DNA from: a virus
Lineage: Duplodnaviria > Caudoviricetes
Virus record (IMG/VR): IMGVR_UViG_3300030329_003145
Span: 1-57,841 of that record
Strand: one strand, 5' to 3'
DNA length: 57,841 bases
The notes under the pieces are model-generated. The model did not search any database and had not been told where the DNA came from. It saw only the letters and a program-made list of their open reading frames with translations. Position 1 is the first letter of the stretch. Each line of letters starts with the position of its first letter. The translations under genes and the position numbers were made by a program. Positions 1 to 16,800 of the stretch are shown here, one piece after another.

Positions 1-83
1 TCGCCGCAGTGGTCGCCGCGAGCAAGGCGCATTGCCTGGCTCTCAAGATGGACAAACTTCTCAAGCCCCAACCGACCAAATAA

Positions 84-305
84 ATGAAACTCGTCCACGA
101 ATTCGAGAACTACCATGATTATGAAGGGCATACCCCCGATGCTAAAGGGGGTGGGGGAGCTACCGTCCGCATAACATTAGACGACAACTCGGACGCTTGC
201 CCCGTGACCGTGCTCTTCAATCTACCGGATGGCGAAGAATTGTTTGAACTTTCAAGCACCATGCCCCGCTCCACAGCCGAGAAGATCCTGAACCTGAAAA
301 AGTAA
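84..305 (+). CDS. hypothetical early protein
   Basis: 73-aa ORF in a tightly packed + strand run; no recognisable motif. Confidence 0.65.
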   Translation: MKLVHEFENYHDYEGHTPDAKGGGGATVRITLDDNSDACPVTVLFNLPDGEELFELSSTMPRSTAEKILNLKK

Positions 306-306
306 G

Positions 307-582
307 ATGCCATACCTTAACAAAAAGCACCCGCTGATGCGGATGGAACCGGACAAAGGATTCAATGCCCTCTCCCGTGAGGATGTTGCCCTGCTCAACC
401 CCGTCGAGTTCATGGGACTCTACATATGGATGGCACTGGTTGCCCCTGATACGGAGAAGCTACGGATGGCACTTGGGGAAGCTGAACGAATTGCCAAGGG
501 ACTGACTGAAAACGAAGTGCGCCGAGGCAAAGTAATTGCTCTCGATATGCACGAACATCACGGGATTGATACCCTAGACTGA
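307..582 (+). CDS. hypothetical early protein
   Basis: 91-aa ORF starting 1 nt after the previous stop. Confidence 0.7.
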   Translation: MPYLNKKHPLMRMEPDKGFNALSREDVALLNPVEFMGLYIWMALVAPDTEKLRMALGEAERIAKGLTENEVRRGKVIALDMHEHHGIDTLD

Positions 583-592
583 AGAAACCACA

Positions 593-862
593 ATGGAAAA
601 ACTAGTAGCCCCAACGGACCCCACCCTGACACTGGAGTTGATTAACAATGCCCTGGCTGTTGTTAGTTTGCTCAGAATTGACTCGGTGCGGGTAGACAAT
701 CACGATGCAACGATTGGCGTTGTGCGGGGGGTTTGCCCCGACTCAGCCCATCCTGGCTATGAAGTCGTCATGGCAATGGGCGAGGATTTATTACGCCCCG
801 AATGGAACATCATGGAGATCAGGGAATACTGGTCGGACGATGAAACCCTGCCTGAATTTTAA
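593..862 (+). CDS. hypothetical early protein
   Basis: 89-aa ORF with operon-like spacing. Confidence 0.7.
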   Translation: MEKLVAPTDPTLTLELINNALAVVSLLRIDSVRVDNHDATIGVVRGVCPDSAHPGYEVVMAMGEDLLRPEWNIMEIREYWSDDETLPEF

Positions 863-874
863 CCCCCGAACCTC

Positions 875-1708
875 ATGCCGTTAACACAATCAATTCAAGA
901 TCGCTTCGTGCAGTGGCGCAAGTCATGCCGGTGCCTCTCGCCCCAAGACTATCTCATCGAGACAGGACAGACGATGGAAGAACTCTGCGGGTTACAGGAA
1001 GACTGTTGCCCCTACGACGAGATCTTCGTCTACGACGGGGGAGTATTTATCCTGGGAAAGTCGCCCCCGACTAATCGATACAATCTGATACTGGACCGTG
1101 ACGAATACGAGTCGGGTAAGATATCGGACCTTGAGCCTATCCTGTTCGAGTGGTCCCGCGAAGACGGGTACCGAATACCTGCTGAGTTTATGAACACCGA
1201 TGCCATCCATGAGATCCACAAGTGGGAAGACTGGATGACCGACGAGTATTCGGACCCGTGCTTCCTCTACTTCCCCCACTACCACAGGCTTGAGGCGTAT
1301 CGCTACACCGAGGACCGGATGGAAGCAGTGCGCTCTCTCAACGAACGGACCCGAATCAAACTGGTCGATCACATTGGTGAACTCAAACCGGAACTGGCGG
1401 GCAACAAGGTGGGTCGCAGGCCGTTGGGGTCGTGCGTCTGGATTGCAATGAACGCGGATCTCTTTGGGGGTTATGGACTCACTGCGACCGGCTGGACGAA
1501 AGAGGAGGCGCGGAACGCATTCTGGGACGAGTATTGCCGGAAGAGTCCTGTCTGGAACCGTGACGGTCAACGGGGGTGCGAATGCCCGGCTGACCTTGAG
1601 GAGAAGTGGGGGGTCCGATATCTCCAGTATGAGATCGGTCACGGGTATTTCGGGGACGACGATGTCTCCGATAAAATTAATGAAGTAAAACTTGTCACCC
1701 GCAAATGA
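875..1708 (+). CDS. hypothetical acidic/aromatic-rich early protein
   Basis: 277-aa ORF; ATGA overlap with the next gene. Confidence 0.8.
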   Translation: MPLTQSIQDRFVQWRKSCRCLSPQDYLIETGQTMEELCGLQEDCCPYDEIFVYDGGVFILGKSPPTNRYNLILDRDEYESGKISDLEPILFEWSREDGYRIPAEFMNTDAIHEIHKWEDWMTDEYSDPCFLYFPHYHRLEAYRYTEDRMEAVRSLNERTRIKLVDHIGELKPELAGNKVGRRPLGSCVWIAMNADLFGGYGLTATGWTKEEARNAFWDEYCRKSPVWNRDGQRGCECPADLEEKWGVRYLQYEIGHGYFGDDDVSDKINEVKLVTRK

Positions 1709-2031
1709 TTCCCGTAGCCTTGGTCATGCTCCTCACCTCCGTTCCCCCCGTTGCCGGTTACATTGACGGGCAACCAATCCGCCCCTGCCTCCGCTCGGGT
1801 ATGTGCTGCCTGAAGGCAACGTGTGCTGTTGGGGTGGGTCACGGTGCGGACCCAGAGGGCAGGTGCAAGTTTCTACGGGGCGACTCTGCGGGTAGTTATT
1901 CCTGCGGCCTCGTTGATGATGGCACTGTATCGAAGGACACAATTCATGCGGGGGCGGGATGCTGTTCCCCCCTTGGTAACACTGCACGGGACAACGTGCT
2001 TAAAATTCTCCAGAACAATGCCCGAGGATAA
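1705..2031 (+). CDS. Cys-cluster protein (YkgJ/CxxCxxCC-like) with hydrophobic N-terminus
   Basis: CLRSGMCC...C...CKFL...YSCGL...GAGCC pattern; signal-like N-terminus MIPVALVMLLTSVPPVAG. Confidence 0.55.
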   Translation: MIPVALVMLLTSVPPVAGYIDGQPIRPCLRSGMCCLKATCAVGVGHGADPEGRCKFLRGDSAGSYSCGLVDDGTVSKDTIHAGAGCCSPLGNTARDNVLKILQNNARG

Positions 2032-2302
2032 TCCAGACAAGTGCTACCTCTTCATGTCCGTAGCTCGCACCATCGTGGAGTACGAGAGTGAGGAAGATCG
2101 TGATGCGGATATCAGGGGATTCAATGGGCGGAACATACCGCACCAGAAGATGAAGACGCTGGACGAAGTTCCAGAGGAGGGGATCTACACCCTGTTCACC
2201 CTGTCCGGTAAGCACTATACCATCGCCCTGGTGAAGGAGAAGACCGACCCCGAGTCATTGGAGCAGGCCGCGATGAAAATAGAAGACTCAGAAAATTTCT
2301 AA
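2018..2302 (+). CDS. hypothetical protein
   Basis: Start moved to ATG 2018 (MPEDNPDKCY) to avoid a long overlap with the upstream gene. Confidence 0.65.
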   Translation: MPEDNPDKCYLFMSVARTIVEYESEEDRDADIRGFNGRNIPHQKMKTLDEVPEEGIYTLFTLSGKHYTIALVKEKTDPESLEQAAMKIEDSENF

Positions 2303-2304
2303 CT

Positions 2305-2589
2305 ATGAAAATATACGAAGTAAAACACGTTATTGTAAGCGAGTGGTTTGATAATAAAGCAGCAGCACTAGCCGCAGTTAAAGCCACTGAGACTGAAACT
2401 ACTGGAGGGCCAATCGCCCAGATGATAACCCGCGAGATTGGAAGCGGTCGAAAAGCCCTCGTCGAGTTTCTGAATGATATGGAGAAAGAAACTCTAAAGG
2501 AGGTAGCACAAGAGACGCTTTCGGAAACCCGCACCGTGATCCGTAAGACCGCGAACAAGCCCCCCGTGCCTGATCCTGCTTACGATTGA
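2305..2589 (+). CDS. hypothetical protein
   Basis: 94-aa ORF, 2 nt after the previous stop. Confidence 0.7.
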   Translation: MKIYEVKHVIVSEWFDNKAAALAAVKATETETTGGPIAQMITREIGSGRKALVEFLNDMEKETLKEVAQETLSETRTVIRKTANKPPVPDPAYD

Positions 2590-2634
2590 TAATAAAACAC
2601 TGGTCGATCAGACGATTCTTATATAATGTTTTTA

Positions 2635-2794
2635 ACTGTCCGAGCATGGTGTGCGGGGAGATCCCGTAACGGGTTTGTTCAACTTCCCATTGAAACACTC
2701 GGACAGTGCCACCCTTTTCGTCCTCCGCAGCATGGTGTGCAGGGAGACCCTGTGACAGGCTAGCTAGTGCCTTATGAAACACTGCGGAGGACGA
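2635..2794 (+). ncRNA. tandem pair of structured RNA motifs of unknown family
   Basis: Two copies with different perfect closing stems (ACTGTCCGAG/CTCGGACAGT and TCGTCCTCCGCAG/CTGCGGAGGACGA) enclosing the shared core CATGGTGTGC-RGGGAGA...TGAAACA; TATAAT at 2622-2627 just upstream. Confidence 0.75.
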
Positions 2795-2893
2795 CCTATT
2801 TGGCGCGTGATAATTGCTTTTGCCTGGGCATTCATCCTGACTTTTTTAGGCGGCGCGGCCTTTACTTCTTGGCTTGATACTCTCCTCCCATGA
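2774..2893 (+). CDS. 39-aa single-TM peptide coupled to the helicase gene
   Basis: Translated by hand: MKHCGGRPIWRVIIAFAWAFILTFLGGAAFTSWLDTLLP; ATGA overlap with the helicase start. Confidence 0.5.
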   Translation: MKHCGGRPIWRVIIAFAWAFILTFLGGAAFTSWLDTLLP

Positions 2894-4191
2894 AAACTTT
2901 GTTCCCGAAACAGGAGGAGGCTTTTGATTTCTTTGTTTACCGACAAACGGGGGATCAGAACACGCTCGACCAGTCGGACCCAGGCACGGGGAAGACGGTA
3001 GTTGCGGTCAAGATGGCAAAGAAACTAGGCCGACCGATTGCGATCATTTGCCCCAAGGCCGTGATACCGGCGTGGAGGAAGGAACTGGAGGAGGAGGGGT
3101 TGACTGCAACCTTTATCCTGAACCTTGAATCCCTGCGGACTGGCAAGTCGGGGTATGTAACGAAGGTGGGGAAGAAGACATTCAAGTGGCTCCTCGACCC
3201 TGAGACGTTGGTCTTCGTGGACGAGATCCACAAATGCAAAGGCCCATTCACCCAGAATGCGGGGCTCCTGATCGCCTTGGTGCAGCAGGGGTACCACATA
3301 CACGGCATGAGCGGGACGAGTTGCGAAGACCCAACCGAGATGCGCCCCCTCGGCCTGATGCTGGATCTCCACAGTGGCAATGAGCGCAAGCCTGGTTACC
3401 TGCGCTGGTGGCCGTGGATGAAGGAATACGGGTGCGCGAAGAACCGATACAACGCATGGGTCTTGGAAGACCCACAGCATTTGCCGAGGTTGCGGGAGAT
3501 CATGTATGCGACCAGCACCCACCGGTTGACGGTTGATGACTTCCCTGACTCATTCAAGTTGAACCGGATATTCGTCACCCCGATGCAATTCCGGTGCAAC
3601 GACCAGATCGTAAAAGCCTACGAGGAACTCAACCTGACCCCCCAGATCATCGAGGACTTCATTGAGAAGGGGACTGTGACCGACAGTGGTCATGTCCTTT
3701 CGGATATCACACGGGCCAGGCGACTGGCAGAGAGTTTAAAGGTTCCTGATATTGCGGAGATGGCCGAGGAGATCATGGCCGATGGCAATTCGGTTGTCCT
3801 GTTCGTCAACTACAGCGAGACGGTGGACGCGCTCCAAGCTCGATTAGGCTGCGACCGGATCGACGGGCGACAATCTGCGGACGAACGGCAACAGGTAATT
3901 GACGAGTTCCAGGCGGATCAAACGCATTGCGTAGTCGTGAACTCTGCGGCTGGAGGGACGGGGATCTCGTTACACGATACGCTAGGCAACCGGCCTCGCG
4001 TGACCCTGATCACCCCGTCATTCTCATTCAAGACATATATGCAGGTTCTCGGTCGCATCCACCGGAACGGCGGGAAGAGTGACGCGATCCAGTATGTTCT
4101 AGTTGCGGACGGGTCAATCGAGGAACAGGTTATGAAGTCGGTGACGAAGCGCATGGATAACTATAACGCCCTGCATCAAGTAAAGAGATGA
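2890..4191 (+). CDS. superfamily 2 (SNF2-like) DNA helicase
   Basis: Walker A PGTGKT, DEIH, SGT, GTGISLH and QVLGRIHR motifs. Confidence 0.9.
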   Translation: MKTLFPKQEEAFDFFVYRQTGDQNTLDQSDPGTGKTVVAVKMAKKLGRPIAIICPKAVIPAWRKELEEEGLTATFILNLESLRTGKSGYVTKVGKKTFKWLLDPETLVFVDEIHKCKGPFTQNAGLLIALVQQGYHIHGMSGTSCEDPTEMRPLGLMLDLHSGNERKPGYLRWWPWMKEYGCAKNRYNAWVLEDPQHLPRLREIMYATSTHRLTVDDFPDSFKLNRIFVTPMQFRCNDQIVKAYEELNLTPQIIEDFIEKGTVTDSGHVLSDITRARRLAESLKVPDIAEMAEEIMADGNSVVLFVNYSETVDALQARLGCDRIDGRQSADERQQVIDEFQADQTHCVVVNSAAGGTGISLHDTLGNRPRVTLITPSFSFKTYMQVLGRIHRNGGKSDAIQYVLVADGSIEEQVMKSVTKRMDNYNALHQVKR

Positions 4192-4433
4192 GACACATAG
4201 TAAGAGAGTATAAGCCAAGGGGTATGCCCTTGTTGATTCAGGGGGAAGTTAGGAAAGTGCCTTCAGAAACATTCATAGAAGTAGATATGAAGAGTCTCCG
4301 CGCTTACCCTATTCTGGGGGACAAGATCCTACCGGCGGCTGATTTTCTATTAGAAGACGAAGAAGCAAAATTAATGATTGCCCAAAGGCTAGTGTCTATA
4401 GTAAAGTTAGAAAACTTTGAAGAAAATGACTGA
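4188..4433 (+). CDS. hypothetical protein
   Basis: 81 aa; ATGA overlap with the helicase stop. Confidence 0.65.
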   Translation: MRHIVREYKPRGMPLLIQGEVRKVPSETFIEVDMKSLRAYPILGDKILPAADFLLEDEEAKLMIAQRLVSIVKLENFEEND

Positions 4434-4605
4434 GCAAGAACGACAGTTCCTTCAAGACCAATTAGTCCTTTTAAAAAATTCGATGGCGGATACTAGCAAC
4501 CGCATTAAGATCATGCAGGACAAGCGGAAAGACTTCAACAAAAGGTATAAAGGAATCCGCGCCCGTTTAGTCAGAGCCGAGGCAGAGGAAGTTGCCGACT
4601 GGTAA
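4426..4605 (+). CDS. hypothetical coiled-coil protein
   Basis: ATG at 4426; heptad-like sequence. Confidence 0.6.
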   Translation: MTEQERQFLQDQLVLLKNSMADTSNRIKIMQDKRKDFNKRYKGIRARLVRAEAEEVADW

Positions 4606-4612
4606 AACTATT

Positions 4613-4834
4613 ATGGACTACAAAGACTACAAAGAAGCCGGAAAGATCCTGGACCGCGTCCAGAAAAAGTTGATGGATATTAACAACGACCCGCTGCCAA
4701 GGACCGAAGTTCAACGGTGCAGGTCACTTAATTCGACCCGTAAAAATCTGGATAAGCTACGGGCGATACTCGACCGAGGGCTCTATGCAGACAATGAAGC
4801 CTGCTCGGAGCGTCCGAATACGGTTTTCTTTTAG
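4613..4834 (+). CDS. hypothetical protein
   Basis: ATG at 4613; converges on the stop of the giant gene. Confidence 0.6.
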   Translation: MDYKDYKEAGKILDRVQKKLMDINNDPLPRTEVQRCRSLNSTRKNLDKLRAILDRGLYADNEACSERPNTVFF

Positions 4835-7800
4835 TCGGGAAGCGGGATAAATTGTTCGTCTTTCTCGGCCTCTGCCAGCAGGGCGTCGAGGCGTTTCTTC
4901 CCTCTCTCGGTCTGCATCAACCGCTCTGTCAATACGGGGTTTGGTAGGTATCTCTCTCCGTATCCTGCAAAGGCAAGCTGGACTCGGCGGTCCCCGTACT
5001 TCGCACTCCGCAGGGCGCGATACATATCGCCATCAGACATAAACTTACGGAACCCTGTCAGTGTCCGGTGCAGCCTCCCGTTGAGTCTTAGCAGACTGTC
5101 CCGCGTATCGATGTAGAGATCAGCGGCTTCTGACGGGAGCATGGCATCGTTCTGGAGCAGTTCGTTATAGCGTTGCCTGGCTCGGGTGTATTCATCCCGC
5201 ATCGCGTAAATTGATCTCTCGAACTGGCGGGCGGGATCAACGACCCTCGGGACAACAGGTAGACCCTCACTCAGAATCATACCGAGTGGCGAGTCCAGCC
5301 CCCCACCGTGGCCTCCCTCGATTGCGGCCTTGGAGGCTTCGATAACTTTAGCAGGAGTTCGAGGTCCGTAAGCCTCTTTCAAAACATACATAAGCCGCTT
5401 GCCGGTCTTCAGGGCAAACGGGTCTGTATCCTCGACAATAGGCTTATCCGTAGCCGCGTCCCGATTTTCTTTCACATCGAAAACTGCTCCCGCGAAGATC
5501 TGATCCCCGAGATAAGGATCAAAGATCGCCGTAGTAACCAGCTTCTCGAATCCTTCAATCGGTTCGCCCCTGAACAGATGCTCAGTGAAACGCATGGTCG
5601 GATCAACGAGAACCGAGAACGGGTTCATGTAAGTCAGATCTAAGCTCCGCAGCTTGCCCCCTGCTTTGAAGTAGAAGAACGTATGATTCTTCAGGTAAGA
5701 CGGGAGCGACTCTCGGAGAGCTTCGTCTTCTTCTTCCCCAATTCCACTAACGACCGTCCGCAAGAGGGTTGGGACAACCATACTGAATACACCAACAACG
5801 GATGTGAATCCGACCAAGCGTTTTACCCCCCGACGTTTTATCACTGAGTTTGAATCCGCCAGTTCCTTTCGGATCTGCTTCATAGTATTCGCGGAAATCC
5901 TCGGGATGTCCGCAGTGAACCGGATGAACGGAGCGAGGAGGAGGCCGATCCCCCCACTTGTTATCTTCTTGATGATCGGAGGTGCGCGGTCATACGACTG
6001 AGCGGTTGCAGTCACGATGTCCGCAGCCAGTTTGTCCCGCTGTGATGCGGACATATTCCTGTATTTGCCCTCTTCTGGATCGGTTTCAGCCGCTTCCTCG
6101 ATAATGGCGCGTTCGTTCTCGAAGTAGCCTATCTTATAGAACGAGTCCATTGCCGAGGCTACCCGAGCCGCCATGTTCTTTGCTTCCCGCGCCACACTTG
6201 CGGGGGTCTTCTTGTCGTTGATTACCTTGGACAATTCGTTGAGCTTTTCCTGCACACTGGTCATTGTCTCTTCTCCGCGCATCAGGCGGATCATAAGCTC
6301 TGACCGGATCTCATTGCCGAATACTCCGAGCCCTTGCAGGAAGGACAAATAGGAGTCCGTCTCAGCCTTTGTTCCACTGATAGCCCGTTTCAACATACCC
6401 TTGGCTCCGTATTCCCCGCCTTGGTAGCCAGGAATCAGGATAGCTGCACTCCCTTTCAGGAGTTTGAATGAGTTATACCCTTGCGCGGGGCCAAAGAAGA
6501 GGACGTTGGAGAGCATATTTCGCACATAGAACCCAATCGACAGGAGCGTCTTGGCCCCCATAGAGTAACCGGTGAGCTTGTGCGCGTGTTCCATGATCTT
6601 GTTAAGCCCCTGAGTCGCGGCATCATTGCCTGAACGGGTCTTCTGTTGGAACACGATCTTGAGATCTTCATAGATCTCTGGCGAAGTATACATCCCCGCC
6701 AATGGGTTGAGCCCATCGTCGGCTTTGTCCGCAGCGATCTTCTTGTATTCCAGTTTCGGGTCGAAGTTCTCTTCGTTCCTTTTTCTATTATACTCTTTAG
6801 CACTGAAAAGCCATCCGCCCTCGACTCCTTGAGCCTTAACCGCGTTAAGGAATGACTGATGCGCTGCAATTCGCGCCACTAACCCGAACGAATACAAGAG
6901 GTTGTCGATACTATCCTGCTTGAGGTTATTGGCTCCCATCAGGTTCGCCAATGGCTCCGGTATTTCTGACCGGCCTTGCAGGTTTTCAACTAGCGCACTC
7001 AACCCATTCTGACCTCGGCCAACGATTGATGCAGGAGCATCCGCGAGTTCAAACGCATTACCGAAATCACTGGCTCCGGTAGCCGTGTCGAATGACCGCA
7101 GGAACTCGATCATCATTACCTCACCGAGCGACTGAGTCCCGACCGCTTGCGCGTTGTATTGAGCTTCAGCTTCAACACGGGCGGCGTCAGTGGAGATAGG
7201 CTCCCCTTCAGCCTCTGCTTTTGCTTGGATAGACTTCGCAGTCGTGCCGATGTAGAAGTCGCGCATATACTCGATTGCCGCCATGCGGATATTAATCGCT
7301 TCTTGGGTATCCGCTTCGAGGATCATTCCCACGTAGCTCGGATCACTGAACATCTCGTATCGACGGGTGATGTAGATCCCCATGTTGGTATCGAACTTCA
7401 CACCGATATCAGCCGCGTGTTGCCCGAATGCTTGCTTGGCCGCGTCGGACAGGGAGTCCGTAAGCGCCCTTACGTTGAGGACAACCTTGTAGATCTCGTT
7501 GTGGTTATCCTTGAGGTATTGGAGGCTTTGGTTCCGCTCAGTCTTGATTACCTCAACCGCAGCCATTCGGGCGGCGGTCATGCGGCTCTCGAACTCGTTA
7601 TTTATACGTTCGATCTCCGCTTCTTGTGCAAGTCCGTTCTCTATTTTCTGTTCCTCAGTGGCTCCTCGGTTGGCATTACGAAAGTCAATGTCGGCCTGTA
7701 TTTTAGCCGCGACTTTCTGCTGATGAAGCGACTCTACAAGCTCGGGGTCTACCTGGACATTGTCCGTGGTCCCTGTAGCCTTCTGCACGTATCTCCAGAA

Positions 7801-10800
7801 CTCATCGTCCTCGGGCGGAATGTCCTCCCCGAATTCTTTTGTCAGCGCGGCTCTGTAGTCTGCGTGGAAGTTATCCAACACATCGCCACTGGACTTGATA
7901 AAGTTATCCCGTTGGCGCATGAGCCGTAGGATGACGGGGTCAGTGTCCCCGACAAACATACTCATAAACTTACCGGCCCGTTTGTATGGACCTGCCTCGA
8001 CGACGGGGATTTCCAGCAACCTGATGTAGCGGTCGAAGTCCATCAAGTCGGGGCGGAACTCAACCGGTAAGTCAGACGGCTCCCCGAAGGGGGCGAGTTC
8101 GGGACCGAGCCCTGAACCCAACCCTGTTTCGGCTGTTGAAGCCTCAACGAGCCCTTTAGATTCAGGAATATAGACGACCGCCATGTTACCAATATTGGCG
8201 ACAACTGAGTCGTGGCCTTCGGCCACTAAATCGTCAGCAAACTTGTTTTTAGCTGCTTCGGTAAGATAATCCCACGACCCCAAGCTATCCAGCCACTCAG
8301 ATTGGCTAATATACTTAGGGTTTCTAAGGCTAGTTTTCCAAGCCGCAGTCGCCCCATAAGTACCCGCATAAGACTGGCTGCTGATAAAGAAGTCATGTTT
8401 TCCACTAAGCGCGTTTGGGTCTCCCCGCCTAGAGCCGCGATACAAAACGATATTATTAACGTCGCTAGGAGGCTCAACCGCCCCGAGCCCTGAAAGAATC
8501 CTAGCCGGTCCCTGTTCAGCCTTGAGCCCCCGAAAACTGGGCCTATAAGGAGCAACTTCTTGTTCGCGTAGAACACGCGCCTTGTCTCTTATGCGCGTCA
8601 TCAACCGATCCCACCCCTCCTTTTGGTCTAACCGCCAATGGTGCATGGCGATGGTGTTCGGGTCAGACCCCAAATCTTCGAGCATTATCTTATCGGCTTT
8701 TGTCAGCCTCGCCCCCACCATTTTTGTGGCGGCTATCCAATAGTCTGCTCCCTTTTGAGTTTGTTCCTTACGGGGGGCTAAAGAAAGATCTTCGATCTGT
8801 CCCAAGGCATCCCGAGGAATCCGCGCTCCCATGAGGCCAATGGCTTGGCCCATCTCGTAATCAGAGATCCATCGTTGGGAACGTCCGGCCATGAAGTCCG
8901 ACACACCGCGCCCGTAATCCTGCTGCCTGAACAGGGACTCACCAATTGAAAGAACTTCAGTAAGGGCCGTGTTTTTGCCTGGCTCGAATCCAAGTATACG
9001 TTGGATAATTTCTACGAAACTGTCCCACGCAGACCGGTCTCCCCGCTCAACTTTTATGGTTGCCAGTTCCCTTTGGAACTGCGGGTCCATGAACGCTTGA
9101 GCAATAAATTCATCTAGGTTACCGAGAGCGTAATTAAAGCCTGCACGGGCGGTCGGGTCTGGATTACGCCTCGATACTTTACCCCCGATGGTTTTTGCGG
9201 CTCCCCCTTGGTCGATAACATGGAGATAAAGATCAATTAATTCCCTGACAGGTTGCGAAACCGCGTCACCGCTAATACCCGCTTTGCCTGTTTTGGCAAT
9301 TTTCCTTAGTGACTTTAAATACAGTTCCCCTTTGGGATTTCGTATGTGCCTATGAACTTCAAGCCATAACTTCTTAGTGGACAACGCATGAACAATCTCA
9401 TGGGCAATTGTGGAAAGACTTTCTCCGTCACTTAGGTGAATTGCATCACCACCATAACTGTAATACGCCCGCTCCAGGCGTGGGTTTACAATTACGTCTA
9501 CTGTATCAAATGCCTCGGGGAAGTCTTTTTTGAACTTGGTGATTAAGTCTATATACGCCTCGCTATTAGCCCCCCCGTAACTACCGGTAAGCTCCGAAGG
9601 TCTCGTTGCCAACGTCCCTCCTCCTAACTTTTTGTCCGCAATAGCGTCCACCAACTCCCCTATCGTCATGCTCCCATGCGTACCCCGCAGCCGGTTAGCA
9701 AAATCGGGGTCCATATCAGCGAGTTTCCTGATCCTGCCGCTGTCTTTTTCATCGTACCCCCGACGCTTATATGTCCAGCGGTCTAACGCTGTGGCCCCGC
9801 GTCCTCCCACTCCCATCATCCTTTTGTGAGCCGCTTGCGCTTCTAAGCCACGCTCGGCTAGTGCTCCCCGCCATGCTTTTTCGATGATGTCCACAAACCG
9901 TCGTTCGTCTTCGATAAGGCGACCATCATCAAAGCGCACCCCGTCGTTGGTCAGTCCTTCTATCATCCGGTCGAATTCCATCCCGTTTCCGTCCCAGAAG
10001 CCAGCCTGAAGAAAACTCTCGTATTCTTCAAACTGCTCAACCTTGCGAATGTTATCTCTCCGGTTTATTATGTCCTGTTCAAGTATATCGAGGTGATCTG
10101 ATATCCTAACCAAGATAGCTTGTCCCATCCTACTGGTGGATTCGGACGGGTCAGCCCATACCTCTTTGAAATTCTGGTAATCTTTCGGGTCACCACGGTC
10201 CCAGCCGGACAATTCAAGAAGCGCGAGCCCCTTTACTTTAGCCACAACCGTTTCTCCAACCGGCATGAGCCCTGAACCCAGAGCCCTTGGGGGTTGGATG
10301 TCAGCGTATTGGCGATTTCCCTTTTTAGATATCGGGTAAGGATTGGGTTCCCTGACCACATCTGAAAGCACGTAGCCATACTTCTTCCCCTTAGTGTCAA
10401 ACTTACTGCCTTCTTTGACGAGGTGCTTGTCTTCGTCAGCCCTGAAAGATTCGATGTCGGGGTAGACGATTGGTTCGTCTCCAATAGTCGCGTAGCCAAC
10501 GACTACAACAGGGCTTTTACCAGACCGGATAATCCCGACACGCTGCCCCAAGAATGACTTGAGTGTATTCCTTGACCGCGTCTCGATGGTTTTTTCACCG
10601 TTGAGGATCTGTTCTGTAAACGATTGGGTTCCGTCGTTTATGTAGATGCCCTTAGTTACGGGACCGAGCCCTGAACCCAGAGCCGCGCCTCCTGTAAGCG
10701 GGGGGTTGTCCAGGGTAACGTCTTCGTTCTTGGTGATGACGATGGTCGTGCGACCCTTTTTCTGAATTTTGGACCCTGTAGGGATCGTGACCGTGAACCC

Positions 10801-13800
10801 TTCGCCAAGGGTCTCTTCAGCGTATGTCTTTAGTTCTTCTTTATTGAACCCTTTCTGGTAAGTGAGTTCGCCGCTTTTCTTTCGGATAACTTCTAGTTCT
10901 CCGAATTTAAGGAACGGGGCCGCACCGCCTGCAACATCTTTCCCCCTAGTAACGACCACGGCCTCGCCTCCCACTTCAAGGTGGTTGGCAATATCCTTGA
11001 GGATAAACTCACGGGTCTGCGGCTCGACTACATTAAGAACAAAAGTATTCAGGATGTTAGGATACTGCTTGTCTATCGAGTCCCCTTGCCCAGCCGCACG
11101 GTCTCCAGTGTATGTCGGGGTGAAGGTGTCAGGAGGGAATGGTTCAAATGAATCTGCTCCGAGCGCCTTGGACGCCCCACCTGTGCCGTCGCCGTATACC
11201 AGTCCACGACCATCTTCGTAGTCTTTTTTGGAGATGATTCCACTGATCTTGAGATCTTCGTGGATTGTTGTGTTTGGGTTTTGCGTTTTCCCAGCCCTGA
11301 TATCGATAGCAAGGAACAGGTCGCGGTTCATCGTAACGCCCTTCTCGTCGATCAGTTTCTGAGCAGCCTTCTGGTTCAGTTCCACGGACTTCTGATCCGC
11401 GCCGACCTCGGTCGCTTTCTTAACGGCGTCAACGAAGGACGATTCAGCAGGCCCGAGCCCTGAAGCCAGGCCCGCGCTCTTGAGCGTCGCGCCCCCTCTG
11501 GGAGGTCTCCAAAGTTGAAGACCGTCCAAGGCTACCCCATCAACAAGATCCGAATGCATCTGTCGGATTAAGTGCATGAGTTGGGGGTCAGTAATCCCTT
11601 CCACCTTATGTTCCTCCCATGTTCCGTCAGCCTTGCGCCAACTTATCTCTTCTTCCAGTTCGTCTTCTATTATCTCTTTCCACGATTCAAACTTTTCTTC
11701 AATCCACGCCTCGGGGTCTTCGATCATCACATCGTCGCTTATACGAAACTCAGTGAACCCTAACGCCCTGAAATAATTAATCTTATCCATCCCCTTTACA
11801 GACAAAACATAATCTCGTTCCTGTGCGAGGGCTTCCTTCGCTGGGCCGTAAGGGTCTAGCTTGCCCCCGGAGTCAGGAAACTGGATAGTAAGAGTGACTC
11901 CCGAATCGTCAGCCCGCTTTATAATTTCCTCCATCAGGGCTTGCCCTACACCCTGCCCCCTCAAATGTCTGGGGACAAAGATATTCGATATAATGATCTC
12001 AGCACGATAAGGAGAGGCACCGCGCTGGTATTTACCATTTACGATTTGTCGATCGGCGGACCCCTCATCGGGTCTCGCGGCGACAAACCGAACTAGCCCA
12101 TCCGTGAGGTAATCCTCGCCGGTCGCCGGGTCAAAGGTGCCGGTACCCCCGAGCATCGCTGGATCAACAGTAGTAACCCCAACAGTATCGGCTAGGGTAA
12201 GGGGTTCAGACATTGTACCTAACTCCCGTATATTTCGGAGTCCGTTTTCAACAATTGTATCTATGTCAAGGTCTACCCCAGCAGCAAACCCTGTCTGGTA
12301 ATCCCTAGGAAAATTAGTGGGGTCGTATGGTATATCAGCAGGACCGAGCCCTGAAGCAGCCGCCCTTCTGGGCTCTTCGTAGGGCTCAAGCGACTTGTTC
12401 ATGCCGAGTTGCTTCCGAAGCTGTTCCAACGTGGCCGTTGGGTTGTTCGGGTCGAATGCCATCATATTGGAGTGGTAGACATACCCTGCCTCCATCCCTC
12501 GGATCTCTGCGACTATCCTAGTAATCGCGGCCTGAAGCTGTGGAGAGAACTGTTTGCGGGTCTTGTTGGACCCCATCCTATTCAAGAGTGACTTGAAATA
12601 ACGTGTGACCATCGGCCTTGCGCCAGGATTCTTGGCAAGGAAGAGCACGCTCTCCTCGGTCGTGAACCCACGGATTACCCGCTGGGCGTGTTGCCGCAGC
12701 ATCTCTTCAACGATCTGCAACTTTACTGCGCGGTTATTATCTCGGAACCCGCGCCTCATTTTTTCCCTAGTCTCCTCAATCTTTTTCCCGCCGCCATAAT
12801 CATTGATAGTCCGCATGGCGTCTTCCTCAGTAAGCTGGTCGATCAATACATTGATCTCAGCTTCGGAGATAACCGCGACCGATGCCGCGTGTGCGTGTTC
12901 TTCATTAAGAACAACCCCGATGATTTCCGCGACGGGGACTGGTTCACCGCCATTATACAGCACTATAGATTCGATGAAGTTAAACATCGCCTCGGGGTTA
13001 ACTCTCATTACCCCCGATTCAGAATCTACTTCGGCCATGCCGTCGAGGGTCTCATCAACGACCACCTCAACTTCTGGCGGGGATAGCCGCCGTGCAACCT
13101 CGGCGTATCGTTCTTTAACCGCCTCCCGTCGTCTCTGCTGGGCAACATCCAGGCCGGTTGCACCCTGCAACGCGGATGCTAATCTTGCACCGTTGTTGCG
13201 GGAATTTGATACTTCTTCGGCAACCTTAGACGCAAGATTATCCGCCGTGAGGCGTCTCTTGGGAGAGGTGTTAACTATTACCGGTGCCGCTGGAAACACG
13301 GCGTTAGCAATAAACGATTTTGCGCGGGCGGGAATAGTCTTCAAGGCACTGAGCCCCTCTTCCTGCAAAGCAGCAAATTCATCAAAGGTCATATCAACCT
13401 CTCGTCGGGTTGAGGGCCGACCCGCAAATACAGCGGCGTGAGACAGGTCCAATACCGCAGAAAATGCTTTTCTGAACTGTGGGTATTGAGTCCTCTGGAT
13501 GTTAAACAGACCGAGGATCGCGTCTACGATCCTTTGGAACATACTCCTCGGCGTTCCAATAGCCCGTGCGGGGTCGGACAGAACTTTGACGGCCTGCTGG
13601 AATTCCGTTGAAGTCAGGAAGTGCGCTATAAACTCGTCTGTATTTTCGAGCGCCTCGTAGACACGCGGGTCGTGATTATCGAAGGCCGTGCTAACATATA
13701 TTCCGCCCGTGAAGCTAAGAGCATCGCTGGACTGGTATGCAAACTGATCTTTTACGCGGGCTATCAGCCCCTCCAGTGTCCTCAACGCTGACCGCTCTTG

Positions 13801-16800
13801 GCGCGTCAACTCAGCTTCTGGCTTACGGGTAATCCCCGACACATACGCATGGGTCAGTTCGTGGAGTAGCGTGTCTGCGACTCCGCGTGGGTTATACCCG
13901 TTGATATTGATCGAGATTGCGCGGGTGCCATCATCTTGAATGCGGAGTCTACCAGCATACTCTAGCCCCGTCTCATCAATCGTGAACGCAATGTCATTTA
14001 TGAAACTGGGGTTCTGGATAAGGAGTCGGGCGAGCGCAACAAGGTGGGCGTCGTAATCAGTTTCGGCGCGGTCAGACACACCAATGATTCTGCGAAGCGC
14101 CTCAAGAATAGAGTCAGGGTTTCCGGTTTCGAGGCCCAAGGCAGCAATCGCTGCAAGGTTCTCTGCTTGTACTTCCGCCCTCGTCATGCTCGTCGGCTGA
14201 GACCGGAGGTAAAGGTCGCCTGCTGCTTTTTGCACGGAAGATATGAACTCGTCTGTTTGCCCAGAGTCTGGCTCTTGACCGAGCAATTCGCGCAAACGGT
14301 CGTTTATTACCCCACGGTATACAGGGTCTGTCTTAGGGTCTCCCTCGATGGCCTGCGAAGACAGGGACATTATCTGAAGTGCCTGGCGAACCGCCGTCCC
14401 CATTTCGTATTTACCACTCTTCAAATCACGCTGGAAAGTCAGACTGGCAGAGTTGGCGCGGTTATTGCCCTGTGCCATCCACTGGACAAACAACCCCCAC
14501 GCTTCCTTGTTGGTCATCTTCGAGAAGTTGATCGAAGACGACGCATATACTTGTGACTGGATAATCTCCAAAACGTCTCTCCGCAGTGCAGGGTCTGCGG
14601 CCATCGCCGCGACGGCGTCCGACTGCATCTCCTTGATCATGTTGGAAATCTTCCTGACCGGAAGTTGTGGTAGAGCTTCCTGCGGGTAAGGCGTATACGG
14701 ATCAGAGATTTCCTCGGCGGCGGCGAAGTCGGGGTTGTTCTGCAAGTTCGACGCTTCGTCCAATGCAATAGTCGCCACATACGTCTCCTTCTGATGCTTG
14801 AGCCGCGTAGCCTGAATCTCCATATACTTCCCTGTTACTTCGCGCCCCACAGCAACGAGTGATACAGGCTCGCCCTTCATAAGGGACTCTTGTGCTCTGA
14901 GTTTCAGTTCGATCAGGGCCGTATCCCGCAGTGCGGGGGTGAGGTCACCACTGTCGAGGGTCGGGAGGAACGGGTTCAGTTCTTCGTCGGTGGATACCCG
15001 CGACATTGCTTCGTCATAAGTAATCTTCTCGTCGGGGTTGAACGGAGAAGTGATAAGCAGTTCCACCAATCCTTCTGGTGCATCCGGCTCCCCTTCTCTT
15101 GCTTCCCGAAGATCTGTAACCCTACGGATCAATGCGGACAAACCGGTGTGGTCTTCTCGCAGGTTGAGTGCGTGTTCGGCGGATGTGAGCGCGGATACAA
15201 GGCCACCGGATTCAGGGACCACGATGTCGGACACGACAAACTTGTTGCCAATCCTGGCGAACCGGAATGCAGGGTTCAGGGTGGGGGAGGTTAAAGCCTC
15301 CACCGGAACTTCAACCGGAGCCCCCTGCTCTATTAGTCCGAGCATACTAGCGGGGTCGTTATTAAACCGCCCCACGCCATTTGCGTCGATGACCGCCCTG
15401 ACCGGACCATACGAAGGCACTGAAGCTCCACCACTGGGGGTCTCTTGCGGGATGACGGGAAAACGGGCTGCAATCTGGTCGGCAATACGCTGGGTGCTCT
15501 CTTCGAGGAACTGGTCAGACAATGTCCGCACACTCACGGGTACCCCGAGTCTCCTCAACTTGGCGGCGGTAAGAATATGCGGGTAGCCACTTTCGATAAG
15601 CCGCTCGATGGCCGTTTCTTCGGCGGGTGCAACGGGCTCTTCTTCGACTTCGATTTCCTGTTTGACCCTGAATTCTTTTAAGGCCGTGATCCGGTCACGA
15701 AATGCCTGGCGTGTAAGAGCTTTAGCAGCCTCGGGGCTTACGGCGCGGCCTTCCTGCACGGCTTTATCCAATGCCTGTTGGACTGCGGGGACGGTCCCCG
15801 TGGCTGATTGCGCCTCTATGTCTCGGGACAGTTTCTGGTAGAACTCTCGTTTCTGGTTTATCTCCTTAACCTGCTCCCTGAACCGTGCTTCGACTGCCTT
15901 CGCCTCTTCGGTTCGTTCGGGGTCAATGATAATGCGGACCTTGGGGTCAGCCAGCGGCTCCAGCTTGGCTTCGACGGATTCTCCTTTCTGACCAGTAGCG
16001 AGTTCACGAACGGCTTGGTGGTCTGAATTTTCGACAGAACTGGATTCAATCGGGTTCAGCCCAAGCCCACTCATCAACGCGCCCTTGATTCTTACGGTCG
16101 CTGGGTCCGCGCCGGATACCACGGGGGTTTCTTCCGCGAGAACTTGGCTCATGGCCGACTTAATGGAAGTCGGGTTGACTGTGTCTTCGGGGAAAAGATC
16201 CAGTTGAGCTGACTCAGGAGGATTAGCTGGGCGAGAGGCGCGGAACATAGGGGGGATCGTGAGGGTTCCTGGCGCTGCTTCTTTTGCTAGGCGCTTGATC
16301 TCGGCTTTAACTTTTTGTCCGTGGACCCTGACTGCTGAGAGGGGCATCCCCGTAGTGTTGGCTACGAAACTTAAATAGTCTTGGTCACGGGTTGAACGAG
16401 TCCTCTGGGCCGTGATGTAAGCGGCTCTATCAATGTCGCTCTCAAAAAAGAGTTCAAACCTCTTTTGACCATAAGAATACCTTGGTTTAGCTCCTGCCAA
16501 ATCCCGTGGAAGTTTTGGCTCTCGCCATGTTACCGTGTCAGCATCCCACACAAATCCAGCGGGGGGTTCTGCAACCGGCTCCTCCGTAGGTTCTGCAACC
16601 GGCTCCTCCGTAGGTTCTGCAACCGGCTCCTCCGTAGGTTCTGCAACAGGTTCAGCCGCAGGTTCTGCAACAGGTTCAGCCGCAGGTTCAGCCGCAGGTT
16701 CAGCGGCAGGTTCAGCCGCAGGTTCAGCGGCAGGTTCTGCAACAGGTTCTGCAACAGGTTCAGCCCCCAACGCCTCTCTGAAATCAATAGCCGCTTTCTG

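What the first reader, a model, noticed from the sequence alone, without database searches (positions are those of the whole stretch)
2622..2893. Tandem covarying structured RNA in front of the helicase that sequesters a uORF start
Seen: two copies of about 75 nt (2635-2707 and 2718-2794). Their closing stems differ in sequence but are both perfect (10 and 13 bp), while the junction strands CATGGTGTGC and TGAAACA are identical. The inner stem covaries (GCGGGG-AGA-TCCCGT vs GCAGGG-AGA-CCCTGT) and a third stem follows (GGG..CCC vs AGGC..GCCT). A mutually exclusive hairpin also covaries (CCCGT-A-ACGGG vs CCTGT-G-ACAGG). G-U pairs favour the + strand, and a perfect TATAAT sits 7 nt before copy 1. 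The ATG (2774) of a 39-aa ORF coupled to the helicase lies inside copy 2, and its first codons form the 3' stem arm. Inference: an undescribed three-way-junction RNA acting as a tandem riboswitch, protein-binding operator or ribozyme. It does not match the hammerhead, glycine or TPP cores as I know them.
Basis: partly seen in the sequence, partly recalled or inferred. Interest (0 to 1): 0.85.

Follow-up and report, generated by a model that had tools for sequence, protein, structure and literature searches.

The report
Widespread new three-stem phage RNA
The two neighbouring 75-base elements are copies of a small, precisely folded RNA that is shared by hundreds of uncultivated phages and prophages from many bacterial phyla and matches no catalogued RNA family, so it is a strong candidate for a new functional RNA class whose job is still open.

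Summary
Copies at 2635-2707 and 2718-2794 each fold as P1 / CAUG / P2 (8 bp, bulged G, GAGAN loop) / P3 / (N)NUGAAACA / P1'. Rfam 15 gives no match. Pattern scans and a covariance model found the same motif in at least 186 viral contigs, in 23 contigs of bacterial genomes from about 10 phyla, and in three further Acidobacteriaceae genomes. Covariation is very strong: 93.5% of cells paired against 68.5% in shuffles, and 0 of 500 shuffles reach the observed score. In P1 there are 95 G-U pairs against 3 A-C mismatches, so the folding strand is the + strand. The motif is intergenic and usually starts right after an upstream stop codon, often ahead of helicase, ERF or primase genes. In 7 of 96 variants it sits inside or beside tRNA arrays. 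Tandem copies are rare: the window, one Terriglobus prophage and one other contig. The function is unresolved. My best single guess is a self-contained transcript-processing module, a candidate new self-cleaving ribozyme (about 0.3). The rivals are a riboswitch-like attenuator and a stand-alone small RNA.

The parts
2635..2707 (+). Motif copy 1, the extra copy. Its P3 is unlike that of the single copy in relatives.
   Evidence: CM R1 scores 81.2 bits. Fold. Sequence.
2635..2644 (+). Copy 1, P1 5' strand. Pairs with 2698-2707 (10 bp).
2645..2648 (+). Copy 1, J1/2 (CAUG). AUG is present in all 116 parsed unique cores.
2649..2670 (+). Copy 1, P2 hairpin: 8 bp, bulged G2651, G2653-U2667 wobble, loop GAGAU at 2658-2662.
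2671..2688 (+). Copy 1, P3 hairpin. Variable in sequence and length across the family.
2689..2697 (+). Copy 1, J3/1 (AUUGAAACA).
2698..2707 (+). Copy 1, P1 3' strand.
2708..2717 (+). 10-nt spacer between the copies, containing a UUUU run. It varies between strains at 2709, 2711, 2713 and 2714.
2718..2794 (+). Motif copy 2, orthologous to the single copy of relatives (shared AGCTAGT in the P3 loop). P1 2718-2730/2782-2794 (13 bp), CAUG 2731-2734, P2 2735-2756 (loop GAGAC 2744-2748), P3 2757-2772, J3/1 2773-2781.
   Evidence: CM R1 scores 76.6 bits.. Strain variants A2741G, C2760T and G2754A keep the pairs.
2774..2893 (+). 39-codon ORF that starts at the AUG of copy 2's J3/1 and ends in ATGA over the helicase start. 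The peptide is hydrophobic. It is local to this phage and not part of the family.
2890..4191 (+). SF2/SNF2-like DNA helicase gene downstream.
   Evidence: Helicase_C E 4.7e-13. phrog_62 DNA helicase E 1.9e-42.
2305..2589 (+). Upstream co-directional 94-codon ORF with no family match. Its stop lies 45 nt before copy 1.
2622..2627 (+). Isolated TATAAT hexamer. Not conserved and without a -35 partner, so probably chance.

Best explanation
WHAT IT IS (confidence about 0.95). The element consists of two copies of a previously uncatalogued, widespread phage and prophage RNA family. The RNA is a 55-60-nt core closed by a free-sequence P1 helix of 2-19 bp. The order is P1, then (C/U/A)AUG, then P2 (8 bp with a bulged G and a GNRA-like GAGAN pentaloop), then P3 directly with no linker (variable, 13-56 nt), then (N)N-U-GAAACA(-AA), then P1'. 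It is made from the + strand as part of polycistronic early or replication-module transcripts.

HOW IT WORKS (inferred; about 0.3 for this specific mechanism). The RNA is a self-contained, context-independent transcript-processing module, most likely a new class of small self-cleaving ribozyme. Once P2, P3 and P1 have folded, the conserved junction strands and the GAGAN loop would form an active site that cuts the transcript in or beside the junction. This would separate the upstream early cistron from the downstream replication/recombination genes or tRNAs. The stable P1-closed structure would remain on one product. In the window the two copies would cut twice ahead of the 39-codon ORF and helicase message.

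SHOWN: the structure, the strand, the distribution and the gene contexts.
NOT SHOWN: any cleavage, its site, or any effect on expression.
For: Structure and strand:
- On 103 CM hits from 100 diverse loci, 93.5% of cells pair against 68.5% in shuffles. The covariation score is 0.563 against 0.160 (0 of 500 shuffles reach it), and the slid controls give 0.07-0.13. Changes on both sides occur in 10 of 10 P1 pairs, 4 of 8 P2 pairs and 3 of 3 P3 pairs.
- The pair at positions 21:42 is GC 106, CG 5, AU 4, GU 1 in 116 cores, with 0 unpaired.
- P1 has 95 G-U pairs against 3 A-C mismatches among 889 pairs in 96 variants.
- Natural strain variants keep the pairs through G-U.

Ribozyme-like traits:
- The size, the multi-stem junction, the many near-invariant junction bases and the significant covariation are the criteria Eckert et al. 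quote for ribozyme candidates (section 17 of PMC10085705).
- P1 and P3 are free in sequence and length. P1 reaches 10 or more pairs in 47 of 96 variants, which is too stable to be a switching helix.
- No protein family accompanies the motif in more than 11 of 100 loci. Upstream genes are heterogeneous.
- The distribution is sporadic. It covers 23 genome contigs from about 10 phyla, 4 of 151 Acidobacteriaceae genomes, and 5 of 16 helicase-homologous loci, with the other 11 lacking it.
- The Terriglobus copy lies in a prophage beside an integrase.
- The motif works in unrelated contexts. It sits between co-directional ORFs (nearest upstream ORF on the same strand in 81 of 97 loci). It also sits in tRNA arrays; in L041 the order is tRNA, 2 nt, the CM hit, 5 nt, tRNA.

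Precedent: passages of Perreault et al. 2011 (PMC3088659) report hammerheads in prophages near integrases, several hammerheads flanking genes, and one variant 13 nt upstream of an early helicase gene with a mapped transcript 5' end at the cleavage site.
Against: - No cleavage data exist, and the argument is by analogy.
- The motif has none of the defining cores of known ribozymes: no Rfam hit at E<=10 and no CUGAnGA box.
- No pseudoknot or loop-loop contact is evident. L3 is not conserved.
- New ribozyme classes are rare. Ten motifs chosen by the same criteria did not cleave in vitro.
- No known ribozyme lies near the motif in 0 of 52 diverse loci (only 13 tRNAs were found).
- No circularly permuted form appeared among the 5 matches of the scan made for one.
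- A T-rich run follows P1 in 26 of 96 variants against 2 of 96 at a control site. The next start codon lies within 14 nt of P1 in 17 of 96. Both point to termination or SD occlusion, which a ribozyme does not predict.
- Beside a tRNA, RNase P would cut anyway.
Confidence: 0.3

Rival explanations
1. Riboswitch-like or factor-responsive attenuator. Binding of a ubiquitous ligand or conserved host factor to the junction pre-organises the three-way junction so that P1 closes. P1 itself is the expression platform: a terminator stem where a U tract follows, or an SD/start-occluding helix where the next gene abuts. Tandem copies would sharpen the response.
For: - A T-rich tail follows directly after P1 in 26 of 96 variants against 2 of 96 at the +40 control.
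- The next start codon lies within 14 nt of the P1 end in 17 of 96.
- In the L077/L075 class the P1 3' strand carries AAGG 6-8 nt before the ATG of a 547-aa SF2 helicase, and an intrinsic terminator lies about 25 nt upstream.
- Downstream and neighbouring genes lean towards replication and recombination: helicases in 7 of 74 downstream ORFs, DUF3310 in 5, ERF in 2, DnaB in 1, plus exonuclease VIII-like, Cas4-like exonuclease and primase/helicase clusters.
- Tandem copies occur in three loci.
- The junction is highly conserved, as in aptamers.
Against: - 52 of 96 variants have neither a U tract, a nearby start nor a tRNA.
- P1 is often 10-19 bp, which is hard to switch.
- The motif occurs between and before tRNAs.
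- Downstream genes have no common metabolic theme.
- The claimed alternative hairpin does not covary.
- The motif hugs the upstream stop codon (within 10 nt in 45 of 89 variants) more than the downstream start (median about 41 nt).
- 11 of 16 homologous helicase genes do without it.
Confidence: 0.25
2. Stand-alone stable small RNA. The P1-closed three-way junction is released from the operon or tRNA-array transcript, either by tRNA-processing enzymes or RNase E, or ended by its own P1 plus U tract. It then acts in trans by binding a conserved host macromolecule or small molecule, as a decoy or sponge.
For: - In tRNA arrays it fills a tRNA-sized slot. In L041 the order is tRNA 2469-2542, the CM hit 2545-2636 (its 17-bp P1 a few nt inside each end), tRNA 2642-2714. 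L112 and L035 are similar.
- A long closing stem brings the two ends together.
- A U tract follows P1 in 26 of 96 variants.
- It is independent of neighbouring gene identity.
- The core is almost the same in phages of about 10 phyla, which fits a universal partner.
- It usually begins right after a stop codon, as 3'-UTR-derived small RNAs do.
Against: - There is no consistent promoter.
- In 17 of 96 variants the next gene starts within 14 nt of P1, or inside it.
- No partner is known.
- The tested idea of mimicry of, or complementarity to, 16S rRNA failed.
- No expression data exist.
Confidence: 0.22
3. Processive antitermination element of the nut/put kind. The nascent RNA, with P2 as a 5-bp stem capped by a GNRA-like pentaloop, binds the elongating host RNA polymerase, alone or with a small phage protein, so that it reads through terminators into the replication genes.
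For: - It lies in early operons, after a small ORF and ahead of replication genes. In the Terriglobus prophage it lies about 3 kb downstream of an HTH repressor-like gene next to the integrase.
- A universal partner (RNA polymerase) would explain the conservation across phyla.
- The resemblance of P2 to boxB-type hairpins is recalled from my own knowledge and was not tested.
Against: - The one apparent nutL/nutR-like divergent pair (L233) is a 1.4-kb perfect inverted repeat, probably an assembly artefact.
- There is no boxA-like conserved flank.
- The U tract directly after P1 is not what put or nut sites show.
- Its placement between tRNAs is odd for this role.
- No N-like gene is conserved nearby.
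Confidence: 0.07
4. Structure of single-stranded DNA: a replication-origin or priming signal, or a hairpin promoter for a virion RNA polymerase, rather than an RNA.
For: - It sits next to helicase and primase genes.
- G-T wobbles are also tolerated in folded DNA.
- The window encodes a 4,966-aa protein of unknown function next door.
Against: - In 81 of 97 loci it points the same way as the nearest upstream ORF.
- It occurs in tRNA arrays and after stop codons.
- P1 overlaps an SD in some classes.
- No Rep/HUH or conserved initiator gene accompanies it.
- The giant ORF has no polymerase domain match.
- The covarying P1 and P3 go far beyond a small hairpin promoter.
Confidence: 0.04

Closest known systems
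Hammerhead ribozymes of prophages and phages (Perreault et al. 2011, PMC3088659; passages read)
   Same: Both are three-stem junctions of 50-80 nt with conserved junction bases and free stems. Both are sporadic in prophages near integrases and intergenic in polycistronic transcripts. Both sometimes occur as several copies close together. One hammerhead variant lies 13 nt upstream of an early helicase gene.
   Different: This motif has no CUGAnGA box. Its junction strands are 4 / 0 / 8-11 nt rather than about 7 / 3-4 / 1-2. It gives no Rfam hammerhead hit at E<=10. Cleavage is untested.
Three-way-junction riboswitch aptamers (purine type) and tandem riboswitches (glycine type). The comparison is from my own knowledge plus the Rfam scans.
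   Same: Both are P1-closed junctions with conserved junction strands. In some members the P1 3' strand carries the SD or is followed by a U tract. Tandem copies occur occasionally.
   Different: There is no Rfam match. L3 is not conserved, so no loop-loop lock is evident. There is no J2/3 strand. P1 is often 10-19 bp. The motif is found in tRNA arrays. Downstream genes share no metabolic theme.
Lambda nut (boxB) and HK022 put antitermination RNAs (recalled; no model was on hand to test)
   Same: Both lie in early operons after a small ORF and before replication genes. P2 is a short stem capped by a GNRA-like pentaloop. Such RNAs act in cis on a universal enzyme.
   Different: Here the hairpin is embedded in a covarying three-way junction. 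The motif occurs in about 10 phyla. It has no boxA. No paired left and right copies were found.
Orphan phage-associated structured RNAs such as GOLLD and ROOL (abstracts seen), and the 8,495 IMG/VR 'csRNAs' of Fremin et al. 2023 (PMC10690425; passages read)
   Same: All are found by covariation in phage and prophage DNA, often beside tRNAs, with function unknown. The present motif may be one of the unnamed csRNAs.
   Different: GOLLD and ROOL are several hundred nucleotides long, while this motif is about 75 nt. The csRNA lists are in supplements that I could not open, so identity with one of them is neither shown nor excluded.

Membership tests
Any Rfam 15 family (4,227 models) | Covariance-model score at or above the gathering cut-off, or at least E<=10 | tested here: not met
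   The window gave 0 hits at gathering. Region 2550-2950 at E<=10 gave only two chance snoRNA hits (E 4.2 and 7.6), one reaching 2884-2920 in the ORF and one on the minus strand over the spacer. In 52 homologous loci the only hits were 13 tRNAs, none on the motif.
Hammerhead ribozyme | CUGAnGA box between stems I and II, GAAA between stems II and III, cleavage-site strand of 1-2 nt | tested here: not met
   The sequence shows CAUG (4 nt), no linker between P2 and P3, and NNUGAAACA. There is no CUGAnGA anywhere in either copy. The blocks are defined.
Small self-cleaving ribozymes in general (candidate criteria quoted in PMC10085705, section 17) | 50-80 nt, multi-stem junction or pseudoknot, highly conserved positions, significant covariation | tested here: met
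Small self-cleaving ribozymes in general | Site-specific self-cleavage giving 2',3'-cyclic phosphate and 5'-OH ends | not testable with these tools
   Needs in vitro transcription or cyPhyRNA-seq. The one RNA-library run available is held as contigs, which cannot show ends.
Riboswitch | Conserved aptamer joined to an expression platform (terminator or SD-sequestering helix) upstream of functionally related genes | tested here: inconclusive
   A U tract after P1 occurs in 26 of 96 variants, and a start codon within 14 nt in 17 of 96. But 52 of 96 have neither these nor a tRNA, 7 of 96 are followed by a tRNA, and the downstream genes are heterogeneous.
Riboswitch | Selective ligand binding | not testable with these tools
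   Needs in-line probing or ITC.
Tandem (cooperative) riboswitch, glycine type | Two aptamers regularly side by side in most members | tested here: not met
   0 of 182 other viral loci have two copies. Tandem pairs occur only in the window, L215 and L258.
tRNA / tRNA-like | Cloverleaf recognised by ARAGORN or the Rfam tRNA model | tested here: not met
   ARAGORN finds 0 tRNAs in the window. The Rfam tRNA model hits the neighbours but never the motif.
Intrinsic terminator | G+C-rich stem followed at once by a U run | tested here: inconclusive
   Met in 26 of 96 variants. Not met for the window copies: copy 1 has UUUU 7 nt after P1 and copy 2 has none. The scan called no terminator there.

The most novel reading that the evidence does not exclude
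The motif is a stand-alone, P1-closed phage RNA that is cut out of early operons and tRNA arrays. It acts in trans as an anti-defence decoy or small-molecule sponge, for instance for a conserved host nuclease or an immune signalling nucleotide. That would explain why almost the same core is kept by phages of some ten bacterial phyla, whatever the neighbouring genes.
Probability: 0.1. Interest if true: 0.95.

Novelty: new member of a known kind. Interest (0 to 1): 0.78.

Why it matters
If the family is what the covariation says, it is one of the more widespread small structured RNAs of phages still missing from Rfam. It occurs in marine, freshwater and soil viral contigs and in prophages of Acidobacteriota, Actinomycetota, Verrucomicrobiota, Planctomycetota, Nitrospirota, Bacteroidota, Patescibacteria, Pseudomonadota, Omnitrophota and Myxococcota.

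Motifs with this profile have in the past turned out to be new ribozyme or riboswitch classes. The profile is a small multi-stem junction, about 30 near-invariant bases, free stems and a sporadic phage distribution. Either outcome would add a new catalytic or sensing fold. It would also add a new handle on how phages time or process the transcripts of their replication genes and tRNAs.

The motif is directly testable because it occurs in cultured strains: Terriglobus albidus DSM 26559 (a tandem pair in a prophage), Acidobacteriaceae KBS 83 and Nocardia suismassiliense S-137.

Tried and rejected
1. Known families. Rfam at gathering and at E<=10 found nothing. ARAGORN found nothing.

2. Alternative hairpin (P2 3' strand with P3 5' strand). 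It shows no covariation.

3. Promoter at the TATAAT. It has no -35 partner. The region is replaced in a related strain. Across 96 variants, -10-like hexamers within 2-14 nt of P1 are seen in 13, which is weak and confounded by A+T-rich stop-codon regions.

4. J3/1 xUG as a conserved start codon.
- The median open frame is 15.5 codons.
- An ATGA overlap with the next gene occurs in about 14-15 lineage clusters, against 7 for a control frame, which is too weak.
- The peptides are unrelated.
- The window's own 39-codon frame stays open in a strain with 13 base and 8 residue changes, and the peptide is 62% hydrophobic. It may be a real local gene.

5. nutL/nutR-like divergent pair in L233. It lies inside a 1.4-kb 97-100% inverted repeat, most likely a fold-back assembly artefact. 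None of the 10 ORFs there has a Pfam match.

6. Mimicry of, or complementarity to, 16S rRNA. The best local scores are reached by 219-496 of 500 shuffles, and the 8-9-nt complement of the J1/2 word is absent from both 16S genes tested.

7. Circularly permuted forms. 0 of the 5 matches of the scan are permuted, and 1 is a further tandem pair.

8. A partner protein gene. No cluster occurs in more than 11 of 100 loci.

9. GenBank phages.
- megablast of window 1-12000 found nothing.
- blastn of one 84-nt copy found one 23-nt match, which the CM did not confirm.

10. Convergent-gene count. In 24 of 100 loci the nearest downstream ORF is on the other strand. I do not trust this count, because spurious antisense ORFs are common in G+C-rich loci.

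11. Expression.
- Run X20, an RNA library of a viral metagenome held as contigs, has contigs over 2761-2913 and 3095-3266 only.
- Run X21 has none.
- Contigs cannot show transcription, ends or strand, and DNA may be present in such libraries, so I draw nothing from either run.

12. Sampling limits.
- All homologues were first found with exact patterns taken from the window, so invariance of the pattern letters is partly forced.
- Each scan left another part free: the P2 stem and loop, J1/2, J3/1.
- L258's first copy, with P2 CUGGG/CCCAG, shows the family is wider than sampled.
- 30 of the 72 loci were judged chance matches by script and were left out of the CM searches.
- For one search I gave 100 of 136 loci with distinct hits, dropping 36 near-duplicates.

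13. Literature.
- Searches found no description of this motif.
- The 16-19-nt core strings occur in 0 papers. An 11-mer occurs by chance in 19.
- The supplements of PMC10690425, which list 8,495 IMG/VR candidate RNAs, were closed and may hold this motif.

Full report
THE OBSERVATION

The window is a 57,841-bp, roughly 95%-complete linear IMG/VR virus record. Close relatives occur in marine metagenomes of several studies.

At 2635-2707 and 2718-2794 lie two elements with the same architecture:
- a closing helix P1 of unrelated sequence (10 and 13 perfect base pairs);
- the strand CAUG;
- an 8-bp hairpin P2 with one bulged G and the loop GAGAU or GAGAC;
- directly after P2, a hairpin P3 of unrelated sequence;
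- the strand A-UUGAAACA or U-AUGAAACA;
- the 3' half of P1.

The 10-mer CATGGTGTGC occurs nowhere else in the record. Both strands fold well, so the strand had to be decided from homologues. Rfam 15 has no match at the gathering scores or at E<=10. ARAGORN finds no tRNA.

HOMOLOGUES

I first scanned viral contigs with a pattern that fixed only the two junction words. It gave 72 loci. Of the 76 matches (4 of them the window itself), 44 also had the unforced GAGA loop, a P2 helix and complementary flanks of unrelated sequence. The other 32 had 0-2 bp of flank pairing and served as a built-in chance control.

I then built a covariance model from 38 distinct copies.
- It found one copy in each of the 42 retained loci and two in the window.
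All 140 new loci held exactly one CM hit.
- One scan of GTDB species genomes gave 23 contigs, all confirmed by the CM (25 hits). They include isolates (Terriglobus albidus DSM 26559, Acidobacteriaceae KBS 83, Nocardia suismassiliense S-137). They also include MAGs labelled Verrucomicrobia, Nitrospira, Planctomycetota, Phycisphaerales, Chryseobacterium, Sediminibacterium, Saccharibacteria, Gammaproteobacteria, Parvibaculum, Omnitrophota, Bryobacteraceae and Kofleriaceae.
- In a sample of the Terriglobus family, 4 of 151 genomes carry the motif.
- GenBank phages gave nothing confirmed.

STRUCTURE AND STRAND

The numbers below come from 103 hits in 100 diverse loci, counted.
- 93.5% of cells form standard pairs, against 68.5% after shuffling.
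- 502 cells carry changes on both sides, against 167 after shuffling.
- The covariation score is 0.563 against 0.160, and 0 of 500 shuffles reach it.
- Sliding the partners by 1-3 columns gives 0.07-0.13.
- Changes on both sides occur in all 10 P1 pairs, 4 of 8 P2 pairs and all 3 modelled P3 pairs.

The base pair that closes P2 at the junction is GC in 106 cores, CG in 5, AU in 4 and GU in 1, of 116 cores; it is never unpaired. L258 shows a P2 of quite different sequence (CUGGG/CCCAG). The near-invariance of P2 in my sample is therefore partly a product of the search patterns.

In 96 distinct P1 helices there are 889 pairs. Of these, 95 are G-U, and only 3 of the 25 tolerated mismatches are A-C. 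On the other strand these numbers would be reversed, so the + strand is the folding strand.

Strain variants recovered from metagenome contigs keep the fold:
- A2741G gives a G-U pair.
- C2760T gives a U-G pair.
- G2754A turns a U-G pair into U-A.
- C2748T falls on the free loop position.

Two junction types exist. In one, P1 is followed by C and then AUG, and GAAACA runs straight into P1 (57 of 144 unique contexts). In the other, P1 is followed by G-N and then AUG, and GAAACA is followed by AA before P1 (77 of 144).

CONTEXT

Flanking genes:
- The nearest upstream ORF is on the motif's strand in 81 of 97 loci.
- The upstream stop codon lies within 10 nt of P1 in 45 of 89 variants. The next start codon is a median of about 41 nt away.
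- Upstream proteins have nothing in common.
- Downstream and neighbouring genes lean towards replication and recombination: SF2/SNF2 helicases, DUF3310 nucleotide kinase-like proteins, ERF, a DnaA_C-type HTH, exonuclease VIII-like and Cas4-like nucleases, and primase/helicase. No family is present in more than 11 of 100 loci.

Other features:
- 17 of 146 unique contexts have a tRNA within 1.5 kb.
- In 7 of 96 variants a tRNA follows within 40 nt.
- In L041 the motif fills the slot between two tRNAs, with a few nucleotides on either side.
- A T-rich run follows P1 in 26 of 96 variants, against 2 of 96 at a control site.
- In 17 of 96 the next start codon is within 14 nt of the P1 end. In the large L077/L075 class the P1 3' strand carries the AAGG that precedes the helicase ATG.
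- 52 of 96 variants have none of these features.

Presence and absence: among 16 loci encoding relatives of the window's helicase, the five closest (69-74% identity) have one copy of the motif. The 11 at 56-57% identity have none, and in the one I read (L243) the intergenic gap is only 45 nt. The Terriglobus copy sits in a prophage with an integrase and a LexA-type HTH gene.

TANDEM COPIES

Tandem copies were found only in the window, in Terriglobus (L215, where the second copy is diverged) and in L258. By its P3 loop, copy 2 of the window is the orthologue of the single copy in relatives, and copy 1 is the extra one. A pair of divergent copies in L233 lies in a 1.4-kb perfect inverted repeat and is most likely an assembly artefact.

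- The proposed mutually exclusive hairpin pairs no better than shuffled columns.
- The TATAAT has no -35 partner. It lies in a stretch that a related strain replaces with 131 other bases, with homology resuming exactly at the first base of P1.
- The xUG of J3/1 is a possible start codon in 118 of 146 contexts. But its frame is short, its peptides are unrelated, and its ATGA coupling to the next gene is only about twice as frequent as for a control frame.
- In this phage the 39-codon frame encodes a hydrophobic peptide and stays open in a variant strain. It may be a real small gene that happens to start inside the motif.

WHAT IT DOES

The function is not settled. Any explanation must hold in three settings: between ORFs, in front of replication genes, and inside tRNA arrays. 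It must not depend on a conserved neighbouring protein, and it must hold in phages of about ten phyla. That points to an intrinsic activity (catalysis or ligand binding) or to a universal partner.

I rank the readings as follows.

(a) Self-contained transcript-processing module, a candidate new self-cleaving ribozyme (about 0.3).
- For: it has the size, junction, conservation and covariation profile used to pick ribozyme candidates.
- For: its P1 helices are too long to switch.
- For: its sporadic prophage distribution, intergenic position, occasional multiple copies and placement before an early helicase gene are just what was reported for phage hammerheads.
- Against: there are no data on cleavage.
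- Against: no tertiary contact is recognisable.
- Against: no known ribozyme lies nearby in 52 loci.
- Against: no permuted form was found.
- Against: ten comparable candidates failed to cleave in vitro.

(b) Riboswitch-like or factor-responsive attenuator in which P1 is the platform (about 0.25).
- For: the U-tract and SD findings.
- Against: the long P1, the tRNA contexts and the 52 of 96 variants without any platform feature.

(c) Stand-alone small RNA released from the transcript and acting in trans (about 0.22).
- For: it fits all contexts, and best fits the tRNA-array slots.
- Against: it has no known partner and no expression evidence.

(d) A put/nut-like antiterminator (about 0.07) and (e) a single-stranded DNA signal (about 0.04) are less likely.

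NOVELTY

No Rfam family matches. The core strings occur in no paper of the searchable library, and four topical searches found no description. The motif may be among the 8,495 unnamed IMG/VR candidates of Fremin et al. 2023 (passages read); those lists are in supplements I could not open.

I file it as a new member of a known kind: a new family of structured phage RNA, and possibly a new ribozyme or riboswitch class. It is not a member of any known family.

Noticed in passing
window 4831-19731 (- strand): A single 4,966-codon ORF lies next to the early operon. It has no PHROG hit at 1e-5. In Pfam it has only a PT repeat and a marginal GNAT stretch, and no polymerase domain. Its function is unknown.
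   Followed up: partly
window 2774-2893: The 39-residue product is 62% hydrophobic, with a likely membrane-spanning stretch. Its frame stays open in a related strain despite 13 base changes. It may be a real small membrane protein translationally coupled to the helicase.
   Followed up: partly
window 2584-2634: In a related marine strain (run X16) these 51 bases are replaced by 131 other bases, and homology resumes exactly at the first base of copy 1. This is an indel hotspot at the motif's 5' edge.
   Followed up: no
L215 1122-1284 (- strand), Terriglobus albidus DSM 26559: A tandem pair of the motif lies in a prophage (integrase 4662-6032, LexA-type HTH 4078-4632, HNH, GNAT). The upstream copy is diverged, with a changed loop and J1/2. 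This offers a culturable system for experiments.
   Followed up: partly
L233 5-3069: A 1.4-kb arm, 97-100% inverted repeat in a long-read MAG contig duplicates the motif in opposite orientation. It is probably a fold-back assembly artefact.
   Followed up: yes
L041 2469-2714; L035 1353-1838; L112 5767-6001: The motif is embedded in phage tRNA arrays on the tRNA strand. Only a few nucleotides separate it from the neighbouring tRNAs, as if it were one more small RNA gene.
   Followed up: partly
L075/L077 class, about 25-45 nt upstream of the motif: A canonical G+C-rich hairpin with a T run (an intrinsic terminator) precedes the motif. The motif in turn carries the ribosome-binding site of a 547-aa SF2 helicase in its P1 3' strand. 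Two subclasses differ by a 2-nt indel between P1 and the ATG.
   Followed up: no
L258 1-134 (- strand): This is a third tandem pair. Its first copy has a P2 stem of quite different sequence with full compensation, which shows the family is broader than the pattern-based sample.
   Followed up: partly
L014 and L026, L020, L063 and L067, just after the motif: A second, separate G+C-rich hairpin follows P1 within about 5-10 nt in some lineages. It might be a terminator or part of an expression platform.
   Followed up: no
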